Origin: Spizellomyces punctatus DAOM BR117
Taxonomy: Eukaryota
Reading direction: 5' to 3' (one strand)
Assembly (NCBI GenBank): GCA_000182565.2
Contig: KQ257450.1
Length of the DNA: 64,000 bases
Position 1 is the stretch's first letter; each line of letters opens with the position of its first letter. A program made the translations under genes and the position numbers. This document shows, in pieces, positions 13,705 to 60,234 of this stretch. A model generated the notes under the pieces. The model was given only the letters and a program-made list of their open reading frames with translations, was not told where the DNA came from and made no database searches.

Positions 13705-16700
13705 TTATGTAACATCGGCTGAGGAAACTCGTGGGTGTGATGCAGGTGGTGGATTTGGCGGGTCGGCTTGGAACGCATCCACGGCTTTTGCAACAAGAGC
13801 TTCCAGGTCCTAAAGCAAAACTGATTAGGGCTAGAACAATAGTATAATCAGAAGAGACAAAGCTTACCGCTTGCATTGTGTTCAGCATCTGCTCGACCTC
13901 CTTGTATTTTTCCAACACAATTGCACTGTCATCAGCAATGTCCTCTCGTGATGATTCTGGATCATGACTTGATGAAGTATTTGCTATTTGCGGCGTTCCT
14001 AAACGCCCCTCTGATGGGTTTCCTACATCCGGTACGGCCGGTACGGCCGGTTCTGCTGGTGATGCATCTGCAGGCTCGTCTGGTACGCCTTCCGAGGCGC
14101 TTGTGAACGAGTCAAAGGAGCTTTGTGAGGTGTTGGCAGACTCCTCCGGTTGTTTTGAGTCAACAGCTGGTTGGCGGCGGGTGCTTTGGAGGGATTCTTC
14201 TAGGTCGGCCTGTAATGTGTTGTAAACGTCGCTCAGGGACACGCTCGCTGTTGATCCTTTCCGAACATTCTTTCGTGCTGTGGTAGAGTCCATTGAGACG
14301 GTTCGTGGACGGAGTATCTCATTCAGTCCACAGTCATCGTACGGTCTTGGTAACACGGCGAGCTCTGGCACGGCTGCTTTAGAAGACCCTCGTGGAGGAA
14401 TTGGGATTGTCTCTCGCAAACGCGCCTCCAGACTCCGCAACTTTTGTACATCAGCTCCTTTCAGTATCTCTTCCAGATATTCCTCCATTGTTTCAAAGTT
14501 GGCTCGACTTGATCGGACAGGGTTGACTGTAATGCTGGCCCGGCTGGCTTTGGTTGTACCGTTTCCTTGTATCGCAGAATTAACAGCCTCGCCGTCCAGC
14601 GGAGAGACTGTGCCGTTAGTGGTAGGCTTACCAGCAGCAGTAGCAGCGGTGCCGGTTGGTGACATTGACTTTACGCTAGACGATTGTGTTTGTAGCTGGA
14701 CGTTTTCTAGTATTGGTACCGCTTGTCGAGTCTGGGGTTCTCCTTGTCGTAGAGCATCAGGTGGCGATAGATCGGGTGGGGATGAATACGTCGACTTGGA
14801 ATTTATCGTCGTTTCAATTGAAGGATTGTCTTTTGCAGGAGGAGTGGGCGGTGTCTCCCTGACACTATGCAAAGTCGAATTCTTCTTCGAAGGCGGTGGT
14901 TCCGAAAAGCTTGCATTGCTGTCCAGTCTCATCAGCGTTGCCTGCGCAATGACACCCGGGTCATAGCGTAAGGAACTCGCACGGGCGTTGACCCGTGGTG
15001 GTGGGGTTGCCTTGCTTGGTAGGACCGAAGGCGGTTGAGGAGCTTCATTCAAAATTCGACCTATCAAGCTGGTAGTATCATAGAAGTCTGAGTGAGTGAT
15101 TTCTTTGACGATCATCTGGTCGCTCGTTTCCTTTCGTAGCGGTGAGAGCTGTCGTTGTTCTACCGACAGACTATCTGAGCTGTCATTTCGTGATCGCATG
15201 GGGGAGTTGCTGGATGTTACGCTACTGGTGTCAATACTGTCAGTAGAGAGCTGCGGAGATACTCGCAAATCTGGCATTCCACCAGCAGCAGGCAACTCCT
15301 CCAGAAAGGCGGGCTTCGAACTCAGAATGCTCTGAATGTCGTCCAACAAGGAAGTTCCAAGGTTTGTGTCCACCGAAGAAGCCAGAGAAGGAGCGGGTGC
15401 AGTGCCTTGCCCGGTCCATTCTTTCCGTAGAACAAAATCAATTTCTTCTGCAGTGCCTTCTGCCATCATCAGGATCGGATAGACGCGCTCTGTATCTTCT
15501 CGCATTATTTCTTAACAACAAATTTGCTGTCAGACCGGCTAAGGTTTCAGAAGGAGGAGGATACAGATAGCAGATACGAACCTTGTCCTTTGAAGATAGA
15601 GTGCAGGGTGTACTTGTAGGAAGAGCTTGATCGTATCTTAAACTTTTTCAAGGCCATGTCAATAATTTCGCCGACTGTGACATTGCTATTCACGCCAATG
15701 GTCTTGTAGGTGCGCATCTTTCCAGTTGGGTCCGACTCGTCGTACATAAAGATACGAATCAAGTGATAATTCTTCTCAAAGAGGTTGAGCTTCTTGTTAA
15801 TTATCACTTTGATAATGTTGTCGTCCGTCATACGAACACTGCTGATACCACCAGTGCTATTGACGACATGAGAGACGGAGGCAGAGTCCCCAACACCAGG
15901 TAAACCCTTATGGCGGAGCTCCTCCAGTACATTGAAGACATTATCATTTTCTCCCAGCCGTTTCTCCTCTGTAACACAGAAGTCTTAGAAAGGGCCACGG
16001 CTTCATCGCATACTATTTGATACGTACGTGAATCCATGTGAAGCACGCTCACATAATATTCGTTCGGAGTCGCTCCAGGTACGCGAAATCGCCGCAAAGC
16101 TACCGCAAGCAATTCCGATGCCGTCAACGATTTCGTCAGATTCACGGTTTTGAAGGTTGCTTTCAGGTCAACATTTCCGGCGTAAATTCGGAGTACATTA
16201 ATTGGCTCCTACGAGATGGTTATACATTAGCTGATTTTAACACAATCTAAAGCGTTGTTATCTCACCTTATTCAGCTCCTCATTCGATGGTGCTCTTCGG
16301 GTCTCCACCACCACGGGCCGCTCTAGTGAGCGAGCGGCATTTGCTACTTCCTTGGCCTTCTTGCTACCCGTGCGCGATAGCAATTTCTATTCGAGAGATG
16401 AACAATGTTCAGACCACGAAATGGCACACTCTGCATTCAATCCAACATTTTCAACATATAAACTGCCCCATCTGCATACCGTCAAGAAATTGCGACTAAG
16501 AGAGTTGTGATTTGACTTTTGTTGTCGAGGAATAGTGCCCATTTCTGGAGCGTCAAACTCATCAGACAGGTCATCATCGTCACTAGCATCGATGTATTCT
16601 ACAAAGTCTTCCGGAAAGACGATATTCCGTCGCTTTCCAGTTTGGGACGGCGGTGGCGGTTCTAGATCCTCTTCCTGTACAGTGGTGACGGACACGTTTC

Positions 16701-28819: not shown

Positions 28820-31800
28820 ATGGACCAAACTGTCCTACAAAACCTTTCAGCATGCCTCTCTCACGACCCAAATACTCGCATGGCCGCCGAGTTGCGCGCA
28901 AAGGAATTGCAACGATTACAGCCTGGTATGTCCACACGTCAAGATCATCACCAATTGTGAAAGTTGGATATCAAATGGGGTACAGCCATTCAGTCTTCTC
29001 TCTCTCTCGTTATTGCTTTAGATTATGCCCAGTATCTCACGCAAATTGCGGTGGGACCGAATTTCCCTCCTTCCGAACGCCAGTTGGCCGCTGTCTCGTT
29101 GAAAAACTATGTGGATACCCATTGGTCACGAAAAGCGGACGATAAGTTTGTTGGACCTGAGCCCCCAACAGAGGTTGCTATACTGCTGATCGCACATTCA
29201 ACATTGTCGGCTCATGAGCACGCTGACCCTGGAACGTATGCATTTGCGCGTAGGTCAAGGCAGCTGTCAAGTCAATGATATTACCAGGAATAAAAGACTC
29301 GAATAAGCGGATACGAGTTTTGATTGTATGTGCTCATCCATGCTTGCATAATGCTATATCAAGGGGTTCTGATCCTTTGGGTTATCTTTATTCACAGGCG
29401 TATGTCGTCTCCCGCATCGCGCATTTCGACTGGCCAGAGTCGTGGCCGGATCTATTTGACTCTCTTCTTGCGGATATTCGAGGCGGAAATGCAGACCACG
29501 TTCATGGCGCCATGCGGGTGTTGGCTGAATTCGTGAGGGATGACTTGACAGATCAGCATTTTCCGTACTTTGCGCCGGCGTTACTTCCCGAATTACATCG
29601 GATATTTGGCACCGAGGATGTAGGTTCATCTACATAGCTCTGAGCAGCAGAAATGGCATTTATTCACATGACGAAACCAGTCATACAGCCCTCGAGATCG
29701 TGCAAGGGCACTCGGAATGTTCAGGGACTTTGCGGATATCGCATACATGGTGTCCGACGAGCATCCTGAAGTCATCCGAAACTATGTCGAACCTCTATTA
29801 CCGACATGGATGGAGTCTTTCAAAAAGACTCTGGCAAATATAAACACCACGCCAGAATCACTCCCTGTAAAACATGAGGTGTTACGGGTACGTGCGGAAT
29901 GCGTCCCGTTTACCTCTGCGACAATGCTTATCATCCGTTTTCATGCCGTATAGACCCTCTGTAAGCTTGTCAAACAGTTCCCCAAACCAATGTCTCAGTA
30001 TACCCTTCAATTCCTTGAACCCGTCTGGAATCATCTCGTAGCACTACAAACACAGTACAGAGACGAACGAGTTACTCCCGCCGATGAGCTCCATGAAACA
30101 GTCGATGTTGATTCGGATGGGGAGGTTCTCGGATTTGAATCATTGCTTTATTCGCTGCTAGAATATGTGCAGTTGGTGGCAAGGAAGAAGGGTTTAAGGC
30201 ACATGTTTACCGTACCGATATCTGGGACACAAGGGCCGAAGCAGGCGGGGGATTTCTTGAGACATTTAATTGGAGTGGTTCTGACGTATTTGCAGATCAC
30301 AGCTGAAATGGTAATTCGAAAAGACGCGCTGCTGTGATGGGGCCCATCTAATACCAAAGTTTATAGGAAGAGACTTGGACGAATGATATGAACCAGTTCA
30401 TTCAGGATGATGAGGAAGAGGCTATGAGCTACAATGTTCGGATTGCCGTGGAGGAATTAATACTGGTATACATCAGGGATGCGTCCGTCCGTCAAAGTTT
30501 GGACATTCAATGTCTACATTTCTCTTGAACAGGCTCTGGTAGAATCGTTTCCAATTGAGACACTTCAAGCGCTTTCTCAAGCGGTGCAGAGCCAGTTTCA
30601 GGAATCGACAAAGACACGCGAGAATGGAAATAAAGCGTGGTGGAAAGTCCACGAAGCATGCCTATTGGCACTTGGACGTCTGAACGGAGAATTGATCGAT
30701 CACATACGGAGTCAGCGTCTGACGTTTGATCTGGAAGGCTTATTCAATCATGTGGTTTTGAGCGACATGAAATGCATTGGTAAGGAGCTCTCTATTGTTC
30801 AAATGGAACCACATACATGCAACTGACATTGCGCTTTGATGGCATAGAACATCCCTTTTTGCAGGGACGTGCATTGTGGTTTTCCAGCCAATTTGCTGAG
30901 GTCCTACCATCCCATTTGGTGTCCCAGTACATGGGAGCCGCGGTGGAAGCTTTGGGTCCCAATATCACCAGTGCAGCGGTGAAGGTATCTGCGCTCAAAG
31001 CTCTGCGGGGGTGAGAATGGCCGATGCAAACGTCTTGCTGTTATCCACACTCATACCCTACAGATTTTGTTTCCAGGTGGACGCAACACAGTTGGTACCG
31101 TTCCAGGCCCCAATCATTGAAGGGATTCTGCAGTTGTCAGAGTCTGCTTCTGAGGAAGCCCTGGCATTGTTGCTCGAGACTTTGGGAACAGTAGCCAAGG
31201 TGTGCTTTCATCGGTTGAATCAGCCGCAATGGATGGTGATTGATGTTTGGCTTTTTTAAAAAGGTGAATGAAGAAGTTACTGCCCGGTACGAGAGCATGA
31301 TTTCGAGGCTTGTGCTGAATGTGTGGGTCCGGGGTGCCGAGGGTAGGCCGTGCATCGCAACCATGACATACCTGAACTTTACCAGATTAAACTGCTCTCA
31401 ACTTTACAGACTTCCTTTTGACGGAGATTATCGTGGATCTTTTTAATGTGCTGGCAGCAAACAAATCCATGGCGGTGCCGTTTCAAGAGCATATGGTCCC
31501 AGCTGTTCGCGATGTCCTGCGGTTAGAAAATGTGGAAAAGATGCCTTGGGCGGTTGCTGTAAGTTTTATCGTTGCAATCCGCCGGCCGATATCTGTTAAT
31601 CAGCGTATTCCGATACATAGACTGCTTTAACCTTAATGACGGCGCTGATCAAGCACATACCAGAACCCTTCCCACCTGTCTACACGAACCAAGTGTTCCC
31701 CGACTTGATCCGAATGTTATTGGTCGTGGACGATCATAGCATTCTACAAAATGGCCAGGACACAGTGAAAGAACTCGTGCAAAGGGACGTGGCTGGCATC

Positions 31801-58073: not shown

Positions 58074-60234
58074 ATGTCGTCGTATATTGATCCCGAGGAA
58101 CTATATACCAAGCAAGGTAGAACACTGTGTGCTTGTGCTTGTAGCTGAGCGCAGAGATGCCTAGAGTCATTTTTTTCTTTCTGGATACAACAGATCGCAT
58201 TGGGAAGGGTTCTTTTGGCGAAGTGAGTATCAGGGTATATTGGACGGGTGCAATGCAGCTCTCCGTCTTGTTGGGGCGGGGAAATTTTGCAAAAGGGCAA
58301 TTGTTTTCAGAGAGATTTGCAACGTTTCCTGATATCATGAACCATTCTTTTTCATATCCTAGGTGTACAAGGGCATTGACAAACGAACCGGAGAACCCGT
58401 TGCGATAAAGATTATCGATCTAGAAGGTGGTGCAGCCCTCCTCGCTTCGATCCGAACGATCTCAGCACTGAATGTCTAAATTCTGCTAGATGCCGAGGAT
58501 GAGATAGAGGATATCCAACAGGAGATCAGTATTCTGTCCCAGTTAGATTCCTCTCATATCACGAAATACCATGGATCGTTTACAAAAGGATCAAGTCTGT
58601 GGATCGTAATGGAGTATTGTCAGGGAGGATCTTGTTTGGATTTGGTAGGTGTACTGGGATCCGGGAAACGTGGACTTTGGGCAGTTGCTAGAGGGCCATG
58701 TCAGGTCCATTACAGATCCATTCATAGCAACCGCTCACAAAGCTCCCATAAGTAGATGCGAGCAGGAACTTTCGAAGAGGTCTTCATTGCGATTATTTTG
58801 CGAGAATTGTTGAAGGGTTTGGAATATTTGCATGGGGAGGGCAAACTGCATCGCGACATCAAGGCTGCGAATATACTGCTTGCGGCAGATGGAAGTGTGA
58901 AGCTTGCCGACTTTGGGGTATCTGGTCAACTGACCGCTACGATGACCAAGAAGAATACCTTTGTCGGTACCCCGTTTTGGATGGCACCAGGTGCGGCTCG
59001 AAATGAGTTCTTTTAATTTGAGGCTTGCTATCTAAAACTTCTTTTTCCAGAGGTATGCAGAGGCGGCTTTTAGCAATAGTATTACTAGGAACACGTCTCA
59101 TATGTGGGTCTGTCTTGACCGCAGGTGATAAAACAATCGGGTTATAACGATAAGGCGGATATTTGGAGTCTGGGGATCACAGCCATTGAACTCGCAAAAG
59201 GAGAACCACCATACGCAGATCTGCACCCGATGCGGGTACTGTTCCTCATCCCCAAAAATGATCCACCCCAATTGGAGGGTAATTACTCGAAGGCGTTCAA
59301 AGAGTTCGTTGCATTGTGTCTCCACAAGGAGATAGATCAGGTTGGCTGTTTTAAATTACCAAAGATGCTCGCATTGCTGTCTTCTGACACTCCACCTATC
59401 GCCAGCGACCACCGGCAAAGGAGCTGCTTAAGCATCGATTCATTAAGGCAGCTAAAAAGACATCATTCCTCACCGAGCTAATCGAGCGCCACGAACAATG
59501 GTTGGCAGAGGGAGGAAATGACAAGGACGGCTCATCCGATGAAGAGGACGAAGACTCTAGGTTGGTGGACGAGGTCTCATGATTCTTTGCCTCGCCGACA
59601 TCATTTTTTTTAACCTGTTGCGCGTTGCACACAGTTTGGATGAGGACGATTCCGAGGGAGGATGGAATTTTGGTACTGTTAGAGGAGGAGGAGGGACGGT
59701 CGGCAAGGCTGCAACTAGACTACAGGCGGCCAATCTGCTACCGCCACTCAACCGTCCGGTGGTGGCGGGAGGGGGACCACAAGTGCAAGTGACACATGTA
59801 GAAGGGGAGGGCTCTTCCTCCCAATTACCAGGGGGCACTGTGCGATCAAAAATTTCGCCCGCAGCCTCTTCCAAAGATCCAGTAAGCAAATATCACAGGT
59901 AGCGTTGATATAGGCCAGTAACTAATGCAGCTACTGCATAGAATCGATCAAGAGACTCGAGTTTCGGCAATGGAACTGTGCGCGGAGCATCTCCAAGTGT
60001 GGATTTCGTAGAGAAGGTTGTGACTCCTGCCATTGCAAAAGTAGCAAAAGGCTCCCAGGGATCTTCTCTCACCTCATTGAAAAAAGCCTTTGAACTTGCG
60101 GAACAGGTATGTTGACAACTGTACGCATAGACAACATGAGTCGGTCTAATGCATACTTTGACACCTTTCAGGAACACCCAGGGATAGTGCAGCAATTGTT
60201 GGTGGAAATGATGGACAAATTGGAAATACGATAA
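58074..60234 (+). CDS. STE20/GCK-III Ser/Thr kinase (STK24/STK25/MST4-like) with C-terminal CCM3-type dimerisation helix; includes a 2-nt micro-exon
   Basis: [81 protein letters not shown]. Confidence 0.93.

What the first reader, a model, noticed from the sequence alone, without database searches (positions are those of the whole stretch)
58991..59124. Two-nucleotide micro-exon required to form the kinase APE motif
Seen: the upstream exon ends ..TGG ATG GCA CCA G|gtgcgg (58990) and the downstream exon starts gcag|GTG ATA AAA CAA (59125). Joining them directly causes a frameshift. Between them lies tttttccag|AG|gtatgc, giving a 60-nt intron (58991-59050), exon AG (59051-59052) and a 72-nt intron (59053-59124). 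Including it restores WMAP-E-VIKQ. Established: the APE glutamate of kinase subdomain VIII is near-invariant. No AG acceptor at the right position allows a single intron. Inference: a genuine 2-nt exon, probably spliced by intron definition or sequentially. Skipping it would be a frameshift off-switch.
Basis: partly seen in the sequence, partly recalled or inferred. Interest (0 to 1): 0.7.

Follow-up and report, generated by a model that had tools for sequence, protein, structure and literature searches.

The report
Two-base exon in chytrid kinase gene
A kinase gene of the chytrid fungus Spizellomyces punctatus very probably has a real exon only two bases long (AG) between two ordinary short introns; it supplies part of an essential glutamate codon, and it is one more case of a rare but already described gene structure.

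Summary
The sequence reads ...CCAG(58990)|gtgcgg...ttccag(59050)|AG|gtatgc...ccgcag(59124)|GTGATA. No single GT/GC/AT..AG/AC intron gives the APE-V-I-K-Q reading.

A spliced 585-nt contig of run X3 has 0 mismatches and two other GT..AG joints in the same gene. It joins 58990 to 59123, so the mRNA is CCAG+AG+GTGATA, in frame. The aligner reports this as one GT..GC skip and cannot place a 2-nt exon.

I read it as a 2-nt exon at 59051-59052 between introns of 60 and 72 nt (confidence 0.85):
- Both introns have GT..YAG ends and sizes typical of this gene's ten introns.
- The internal YAG-AG-GTRNG signal is expected about 0.003 times per 132 nt by chance.

The gene is a GCK-III/YSK STE20 kinase of Spizellomyces punctatus, and the reference protein already reads WMAPEVIKQ. 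Models of relatives are garbled at exactly this junction.

Two-base exons are in print for fungi (57 in Coprinopsis cinerea, PMC12230235), so this is a new member of a known kind. Sequential splicing is inferred. The "off-switch" idea is untested. This scan has noted similar micro-exons at kinase APE motifs on other DNA.

The parts
58074..60234 (+). GCK-III / YSK-type STE20 protein kinase gene. Homology-guided model of 11 exons and 457 aa.
   Evidence: Model built. 100% identical over the 78-aa exon to the S. punctatus DAOM BR117 'STE/STE20/YSK protein kinase' P0003. Pkinase domain.
58756..58990 (+). Exon 5. Encodes MRAG...TPFWMAP plus the first base (G) of the APE glutamate codon.
   Evidence: Covered without mismatch by the spliced X3 contig.
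58991..59050 (+). Upstream flanking intron, 60 nt, phase 1. It runs GTGCGG...CAG, with a pyrimidine-rich tail (11 of the last 15 bases before the CAG) and a CTAAA-type candidate branch site.
   Evidence: The same intron position is inferred in relatives P0012, P0034, P0121 and P0146.
59051..59052 (+). Two-nucleotide exon AG: second and third bases of the Glu codon of the kinase APE motif.
   Evidence: The mRNA contig carries the two extra bases AG between 58990 and 59125. This is the only internal AG that lies between a YAG acceptor and a GT donor with G at +5.
59053..59124 (+). Downstream flanking intron, 72 nt, phase 0. It runs GTATGC...CAG. Its last 34 bases before the final AG hold no other AG.
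   Evidence: Its 3' 62 nt are homologous to the 22-aa insertion in the palustris model P0004 (13 of the first 18 residues identical, then a frame-changing indel).
59125..59340 (+). Exon 7. Encodes [17 protein letters not shown]...CLHKEIDQ.
   Evidence: Covered from 59123 to 59253 by the spliced X3 contig.

Best explanation
The bases AG at 59051-59052 are a constitutive two-nucleotide coding exon of a Spizellomyces punctatus GCK-III (YSK/MST3/MST4-like) STE20 kinase gene. It lies between a 60-nt phase-1 intron (58991-59050) and a 72-nt phase-0 intron (59053-59124), both with ordinary GT..YAG ends. Removing both introns joins G + AG + GTG, which forms the Glu codon of the APE motif and keeps the kinase in frame.

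Shown: the genomic layout, the in-frame mRNA sequence, and the lack of any single canonical intron.

Inferred:
- The two introns are each recognised across the intron (intron definition, usual for short fungal introns).
- They are removed one after the other. The donor of the second intron (positions -3 to +6) overlaps the acceptor of the first, so two spliceosomes can hardly sit there at once.
- Either order regenerates a usable site: CAGAG|gtatgc after the first intron goes, or ttccag|AGGTG after the second goes.

The layout is best seen as two intron positions, each found alone in other eukaryotes, lying 2 nt apart in this lineage.
For: Sequence.

No single canonical intron.

mRNA: the X3 contig (585 nt, depth 6.46, 0 other letters) has three joints. 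They are 58424>58488 GT..AG, 58643>58755 GT..AG, and 58990>59123 'skips 132, GT..GC, both=0'. So the mRNA holds exactly two extra bases, AG.

Reference protein P0003 reads WMAPEVIKQ.

All ten introns of the model are GT..YAG and measure 77, 140, 63, 111, 60, 72, 65, 74, 60 and 65 nt. Eight of ten, including both flanking introns, have G at +5.

The chance rate of YAG-AG-GTRNG is about 0.003 per 132 nt.

The Glu is needed:
- 114 of 120 homologues have P-E followed by V/T/L then I/M. The six exceptions are model or read-through artefacts.
- One Pkinase profile position is missing between the exons.

Relatives:
- The palustris model P0004 carries a 22-aa insertion homologous to intron 2.
- P0015 and P0016 read E-V and then junk, as expected if a predictor ran from the AG into the second intron.

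In print: 57 two-nt exons in C. cinerea (PMC12230235, passages read).
Against: No read or contig shows a partly spliced intermediate or a lariat, so two separate excisions are not shown directly. The aligner's own description is a single GT..GC skip.

Run X3 is not on record as RNA. Its contig is taken as cDNA only because it is spliced.

The close relative behind P0012 seems to have only one 63-nt intron here, so the layout is not fixed among relatives.

No DNA of any chytrid relative could be read. All statements about relatives rest on protein translations.

Branch sites are only plausible matches by eye.
Confidence: 0.85

Rival explanations
1. One 132-nt intron (58991-59122) with a non-canonical GT..GC pair of ends. 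The AG at 59123-59124 stays in the mRNA, and the internal cag|AG|gtatgc is a coincidence.
For: This is how the aligner laid the X3 contig: 'skips 132, GT..GC, both=0'. Introns of 111 and 140 nt exist in the same gene.
Against: All ten modelled introns of the gene end in YAG. The internal acceptor-AG-donor signal with a pyrimidine tract is expected only about 0.003 times per 132 nt. From general knowledge, not tested here: a 3' end other than AG (or AC in AT-AC introns) is almost unknown for spliceosomal introns, and short-read aligners routinely report ultra-short exons as false non-canonical introns.
Confidence: 0.05
2. The two-base exon is the other AG, at 59061-59062. It would lie after the acceptor ...atgcag (59060) and before a GC donor (GCGGCT, 59063), giving introns of 70 and 62 nt.
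For: The mRNA sequence would be the same. The palustris gene model P0004 uses the equivalent acceptor.
Against: GCGGCT lacks G at +5 and is not a GT donor, whereas all ten introns of the model start with GT. The palustris model is an unsupported read-through that inserts 22 residues into the kinase core.
Confidence: 0.04
3. The micro-exon is a regulated switch. Skipping it (58990 joined to 59125) yields a frameshifted, truncated kinase or an NMD target, and the cell uses this to turn the kinase down.
For: Skipping uses two canonical sites (GT at 58991, AG at 59124). It gives a stop seven codons after the junction.
Against: No skipped form was seen. The only RNA evidence is one assembled contig with inclusion, although contigs drop rare variants. 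Constitutive inclusion is what has been reported for the 1-nt exons of Arabidopsis APC11 and Fusarium CYP621A (abstracts read).
Confidence: 0.08

Closest known systems
Exons of 3 nt or less in the long-read annotation of Coprinopsis cinerea (PMC12230235; passages read). It lists 13 exons of 1 nt, 57 of 2 nt and 27 of 3 nt.
   Same: Fungal nuclear genes. Internal coding exons of 2 nt between short canonical introns. Omission creates a premature stop. Gene predictors miss them.
   Different: That is a basidiomycete, not a chytrid, and a genome-wide catalogue from long reads. No kinase APE case is named in the passages I read. Here the support is one short-read contig plus the reference protein.
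One-nucleotide exon of Fusarium CYP621A P450 genes (Nelson and Syed 2026, PMC12940212; abstract and passages read).
   Same: A fungal ultra-short exon completes a codon in a conserved motif. It was noticed because the apparent intron is about twice the usual length. It was confirmed from public RNA data and is missed by automatic annotation.
   Different: It is 1 nt, not 2, in an ascomycete P450, and is conserved in 20 orthologues. Conservation here is only inferred.
Single-nucleotide exon of Arabidopsis APC11 (Guo and Liu 2015, PMC4674806; abstract and outline read).
   Same: A constitutive exon far below the size thought necessary for exon recognition, flanked by canonical introns.
   Different: It is a plant gene and was tested with reporter constructs. 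No such test exists here.
Recursive splice sites / zero-length exons (only the search listing of PMC6224609 was seen; the rest is recalled).
   Same: An acceptor and a donor lie almost back to back inside what looks like one intron, and removal is stepwise.
   Different: At a recursive site nothing is kept in the mRNA, and the introns are very long. Here two bases are kept and the introns are 60 and 72 nt.

Membership tests
Ultra-short (3 nt or less) coding micro-exon between two spliceosomal introns | The mature mRNA holds bases that no single canonical intron can leave behind | tested here: met
   The X3 contig joins 58990 to 59123. The enumeration of single introns found none that fits.
Ultra-short (3 nt or less) coding micro-exon between two spliceosomal introns | Both flanking introns have canonical ends and a size normal for the organism | tested here: met
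   GTGCGG..CAG of 60 nt and GTATGC..CAG of 72 nt. The gene's other eight introns measure 60-140 nt and are all GT..YAG.
Ultra-short (3 nt or less) coding micro-exon between two spliceosomal introns | Each intron has its own pyrimidine tract and branch site | tested here: inconclusive
   11 of the 15 bases before the first acceptor are pyrimidines. Candidate branch motifs (CTAAA; CTCAT or TTGAC) were seen by eye output. No species-specific branch model was built.
Ultra-short (3 nt or less) coding micro-exon between two spliceosomal introns | Two separate excision events (partly spliced intermediates or two lariats) | not testable with these tools
   The only raw-read RNA run (X7) gave 13 reads and no joint.
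Ultra-short (3 nt or less) coding micro-exon between two spliceosomal introns | Conservation of the layout in orthologues | tested here: inconclusive
   The palustris model holds a homologue of intron 2. P0015 and P0016 are garbled just after E-V. P0012 indicates a single 63-nt intron. No relative's DNA was available.
GCK-III (YSK1/MST3/MST4) subfamily of STE20 kinases | N-terminal protein kinase domain, with closest named relatives in this subfamily | tested here: met
   Pkinase E = 4.9e-67 for P0003. Sources name the hits 'STE/STE20/YSK' and 'serine/threonine-protein kinase 24/25/MST4'.
GCK-III (YSK1/MST3/MST4) subfamily of STE20 kinases | C-terminal dimerisation region related to PDCD10_N (PF20929) | tested here: inconclusive
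   PF20929 hits the palustris orthologue P0004 at 338-388. The window's own C-terminal exons encode a near-identical tail in the model but were not scanned as a joined protein. The reference protein P0003 lacks this tail.
Stwintron (spliceosomal twin intron) | An internal intron interrupts a splice signal of an outer intron, so the outer site exists only after the first excision | tested here: not met
   Both introns are complete on their own. The mRNA needs four cut sites: 58990|58991, 59050|59051, 59052|59053 and 59124|59125. The definition is recalled, not read here.
Recursive splice site (zero-length exon) | Acceptor and donor directly abut, and nothing is retained | tested here: not met
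   Two bases are retained in the mRNA.

The most novel reading that the evidence does not exclude
The two-base exon is old and shared by several chytrid orders. It was made by keeping two ancient intron positions that lie 2 nt apart: phase 1 inside the APE Glu codon, and phase 0 just after it. Each is seen alone in other eukaryotes. On this reading, regulated skipping of the exon (frameshift, stop after seven codons) serves as an unproductive-splicing control of a GCK-III kinase.
Probability: 0.08. Interest if true: 0.55.

Novelty: new member of a known kind. Interest (0 to 1): 0.3.

Why it matters
It is a clean case, backed by a spliced transcript contig, of an exon far below any size that exon recognition could use, and it sits in a codon the kinase cannot do without.

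In practice it marks a spot where automatic gene models of related chytrids are wrong. The palustris, Phlyctochytrium arcticum, P. planicorne and one Rhizophlyctis rosea model are all garbled at this junction.

S. punctatus can be transformed (titles of PMC7213984 and PMC10267658 in the listing), so the order and requirements of splicing two introns 2 nt apart could be tested there.

It does not open a new kind of biology. Two-base and one-base exons are already in print for fungi and plants.

Tried and rejected
- **Whole genome.** None is held, so no genome-wide count of such exons and no species splice-site model could be made.
- **RNA runs.** No listed holder is on record as RNA. The raw-read RNA run X7 gave 13 reads and no joints, and X8 gave nothing. 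So there is no quantification, no intermediates and no view of a skipped form.
- **Metagenome scan for relatives' DNA.** It returned 80 loci, the best 83% identical, and none is a close chytrid relative. 79 of the 80 run straight from WMAP into GAR GTN; L047 did not match my pattern. Many may be cDNA, so this says only that the introns are not general.
- **Second protein search, with the downstream exon.** It found no close relative. Of 120 fragments, 95 have P-E before V, 19 did not match my pattern, 4 read Q|V (fits a phase-0 acceptor) and 2 read (L/V)E|V (fits a phase-1 acceptor). All of this is inferred from translations only.
- **Single GC..AG intron 58993-59124 (A-P-G-V).** Rejected, because the contig sequence differs.
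- **Duplication origin of the two introns.** Their local alignment score of 6 is no better than shuffles (474 of 500 shuffles reach it).
- **RNA structure bringing the sites together.** z = -1.06, which is nothing.
- **Rfam.** Nothing lies in the introns. The one hit is a sub-threshold sR45 match elsewhere.
- **Other 2-nt exon candidates in the window.** Of 20 loose YAG-NN-GTRNG matches, the one at 29398 is an ordinary acceptor followed by a long exon. The one at 15140 is unresolved.
- **Literature.** Searches for a chytrid or Spizellomyces micro-exon listed no such paper in this library.

Full report
**The observation.** The upstream exon ends ...TGGATGGCACCAG at 58990 and is followed by gtgcgg. 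At 59040-59058 the text reads tctttttccag|AG|gtatgc, with AG at 59051-59052. The stretch ends ...ccgcag at 59124 and is followed by GTGATAAAACAA.

In one search I listed every single intron with a GT, GC or AT start between 58950 and 59059 and an AG or AC end that leaves an open frame. None gives P-E-V-I-K-Q. The nearest canonical one, GC..AG 58993-59124, gives A-P-G-V-I-K-Q. Joining 58990 straight to 59125 shifts the frame and stops after WMAPGDKTIGL. Pfam's Pkinase profile ends at position 166 in the upstream exon and resumes at 169 on the second residue of the downstream exon. Exactly one residue is missing.

**What the gene is.** The 78-aa upstream exon is 100% identical to 'STE/STE20/YSK protein kinase [Spizellomyces punctatus DAOM BR117]' (P0003) and to a protein of Spizellomyces sp. 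'palustris' (P0004). It is 95-97% identical to proteins of other Spizellomycetales. More distant hits are named serine/threonine-protein kinase 24/25/MST4.

A homology-guided model has 11 exons (58074-60234) and 457 aa. Its ten introns measure 77, 140, 63, 111, 60, 72, 65, 74, 60 and 65 nt. All are GT..YAG, and eight of ten have G at +5. The two introns that flank the AG are therefore ordinary in size and signals. A single 132-134-nt intron would sit at the long end of this range.

**RNA evidence.** No run is on record as an RNA holder of the stretch. When four runs were laid on 58300-59700, run X3 gave one 585-nt contig with depth 6.46 and no differing letters. Its library kind is not on record. 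The contig is spliced three times:
- 58424>58488 (GT..AG)
- 58643>58755 (GT..AG)
- 58990>59123 ('skips 132, GT..GC', no ambiguity in placement)

The mRNA therefore reads ...CCAG, then AG, then GTGATA. An aligner cannot place a 2-nt exon, so it uses the AG at 59123-59124 and reports a false-looking GT..GC intron. The contig alone does not tell the two readings apart.

The contig also rules out the GC..AG alternative, whose mRNA would differ. Contigs of X1 reproduce the unspliced genomic text from 59030 to 59322, but X1 may be the source sample, so it is not independent. The raw-read RNA run X7 gave only 13 reads and no joints, so no partly spliced forms and no skipped form could be looked for.

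**Why a 2-nt exon and not a GT..GC intron.**
- All ten introns of the gene end in YAG. A GC end would be the only exception.
- The internal signal is complete. It has a pyrimidine-rich tail (11 of 15 bases), then CAG, then the needed AG, then GTATGC with G at +5.
- The pattern YAG-AG-GTRNG occurs 3 times in the 128,000 nt of both strands of the window, this site included. That is about 0.003 per 132 nt.
- Both sub-introns have AG-free tails and plausible branch motifs. This last point is by eye only.
- A second AG at 59061-59062 follows another acceptor but precedes GCGGCT, a poor GC donor. I rate that variant low.

A stwintron reading fails because the mRNA needs four cut sites and both introns are complete on their own. 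A recursive site fails because two bases are kept.

**How it most likely works.** The layout and the mRNA are shown. The mechanism is inferred. Short fungal introns are recognised across the intron. The donor region of the second intron (-3 to +6) overlaps the acceptor of the first, so the two introns are probably removed one after the other. Either order leaves a usable site: CAGAG|gtatgc after the first goes, or ttccag|AGGTG after the second goes.

I found no RNA structure (z = -1.06) and no Rfam family in the introns. The two introns are not copies of each other.

**Relatives.** The Glu is essentially fixed. Of the 120 best homologues, 114 have P-E followed by V/T/L then I/M (111 matched my first pattern and 9 carry the WMPPE variant). 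The six exceptions are artefacts at this very junction:
- P0004 (palustris) inserts 22 residues after E. These are homologous to the window's second intron, with 13 of the first 18 identical and then a frame-changing indel. This is the behaviour of non-coding sequence.
- P0012, an unnamed ORF 96% identical in the exon, reads WMAP, then 21 residues, then EVIKQ. This fits one in-frame 63-nt phase-1 intron and no second intron.
- P0034 stops after WMAPGKLEFMR, which fits a G|GTAAG phase-1 donor.
- P0016 (one Rhizophlyctis rosea record) reads APEVFFISVIKQ.
- P0023 is garbled in another way.
- P0001 is an unrelated fish mis-model.

P0015 (Phlyctochytrium arcticum) passes my pattern but reads APEV and then 17 unrelated residues, and it lacks [10 protein letters not shown] predictor that cannot make a 2-nt exon, and so runs from the AG into the second intron, would produce models like P0015 and P0016. 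These species may therefore share the layout.

Among 120 short ORF fragments of more distant eukaryotes, 4 read Q|V (fits a phase-0 intron after the Glu codon) and 2 read (L/V)E|V (fits a phase-1 intron inside it). So each position seems to occur alone elsewhere.

All of this is inferred from translations. No relative's DNA could be read. In 79 of 80 metagenome loci of more distant relatives the codons run on without a break; L047 did not match my pattern.

**What is known.**
- The long-read annotation of Coprinopsis cinerea lists 13 exons of 1 nt, 57 of 2 nt and 27 of 3 nt (PMC12230235, passages read).
- A 1-nt exon is described in Fusarium CYP621A genes, supported by public RNA data (PMC12940212, abstract and passages).
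- A 1-nt exon is described in Arabidopsis APC11 (PMC4674806, abstract).
- My searches listed no paper on micro-exons in chytrids in this library.
- The reference protein of S. punctatus already carries the Glu, so its annotators solved the junction in some way that I could not inspect.
- Earlier notes of this scan report a 2-nt exon in a fungal GCN2 gene, and 1-nt and 6-nt exons at kinase APE motifs in a diatom and in Naegleria. I did not test these.

**Verdict.** Sequential splicing is a reasonable inference. The off-switch idea is untested. This is a new member of a known kind. Its interest is modest: it corrects annotation in chytrids and offers a tractable case for studying how two introns 2 nt apart are removed.

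Noticed in passing
window 58223-58362 and 59882-59941: The reference protein P0003 (392 aa) differs from the homology-guided 457-aa model. It has three extra residues ([10 protein letters not shown]), as if a downstream donor in the second intron had been used. It ends ...DPVSKYHR, which reads into the ninth intron, so it lacks the C-terminal tail that in the palustris orthologue P0004 matches PF20929 (PDCD10_N). It looks like a model built on a partly spliced transcript.
   Followed up: partly
window 59258: Three reads of RNA run X7 end at 59258, inside exon 7, and go on with a run of at least 12 A that the genome lacks (it has 5 A there). X7 depth is highest just upstream. This could be premature polyadenylation or internal priming.
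   Followed up: no
proteins P0004, P0015, P0016, P0023 (relatives, no DNA held): Public gene models of Spizellomyces sp. 'palustris', Phlyctochytrium arcticum, one Rhizophlyctis rosea record and Phlyctochytrium planicorne are all garbled at the APE junction. They are likely mis-annotations and possible further carriers of the micro-exon.
   Followed up: partly
window 59005-59051: X7 shows depth 0.4 in this bin, which lies in the first flanking intron, and none in the bins on either side. It may be a partly laid read of pre-mRNA or of an intermediate. The signal is too thin to use.
   Followed up: no
window 59535-59600 (+): Sub-threshold Rfam match to the archaeal C/D-box snoRNA family sR45 (26.1 bits against a gathering score of 40, E = 0.0033). 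It spans the end of exon 8 and the next intron and is most likely chance.
   Followed up: no
window 15140 (+) and 29398 (+): Two other acceptor-NN-donor look-alikes with pyrimidine-rich tails. At 29398 the acceptor is followed by a long open exon (AYVVSRIAHFDWPESWPDLF...), so it is not a micro-exon. The one at 15140 lies in a region whose coding strand I did not resolve.
   Followed up: partly
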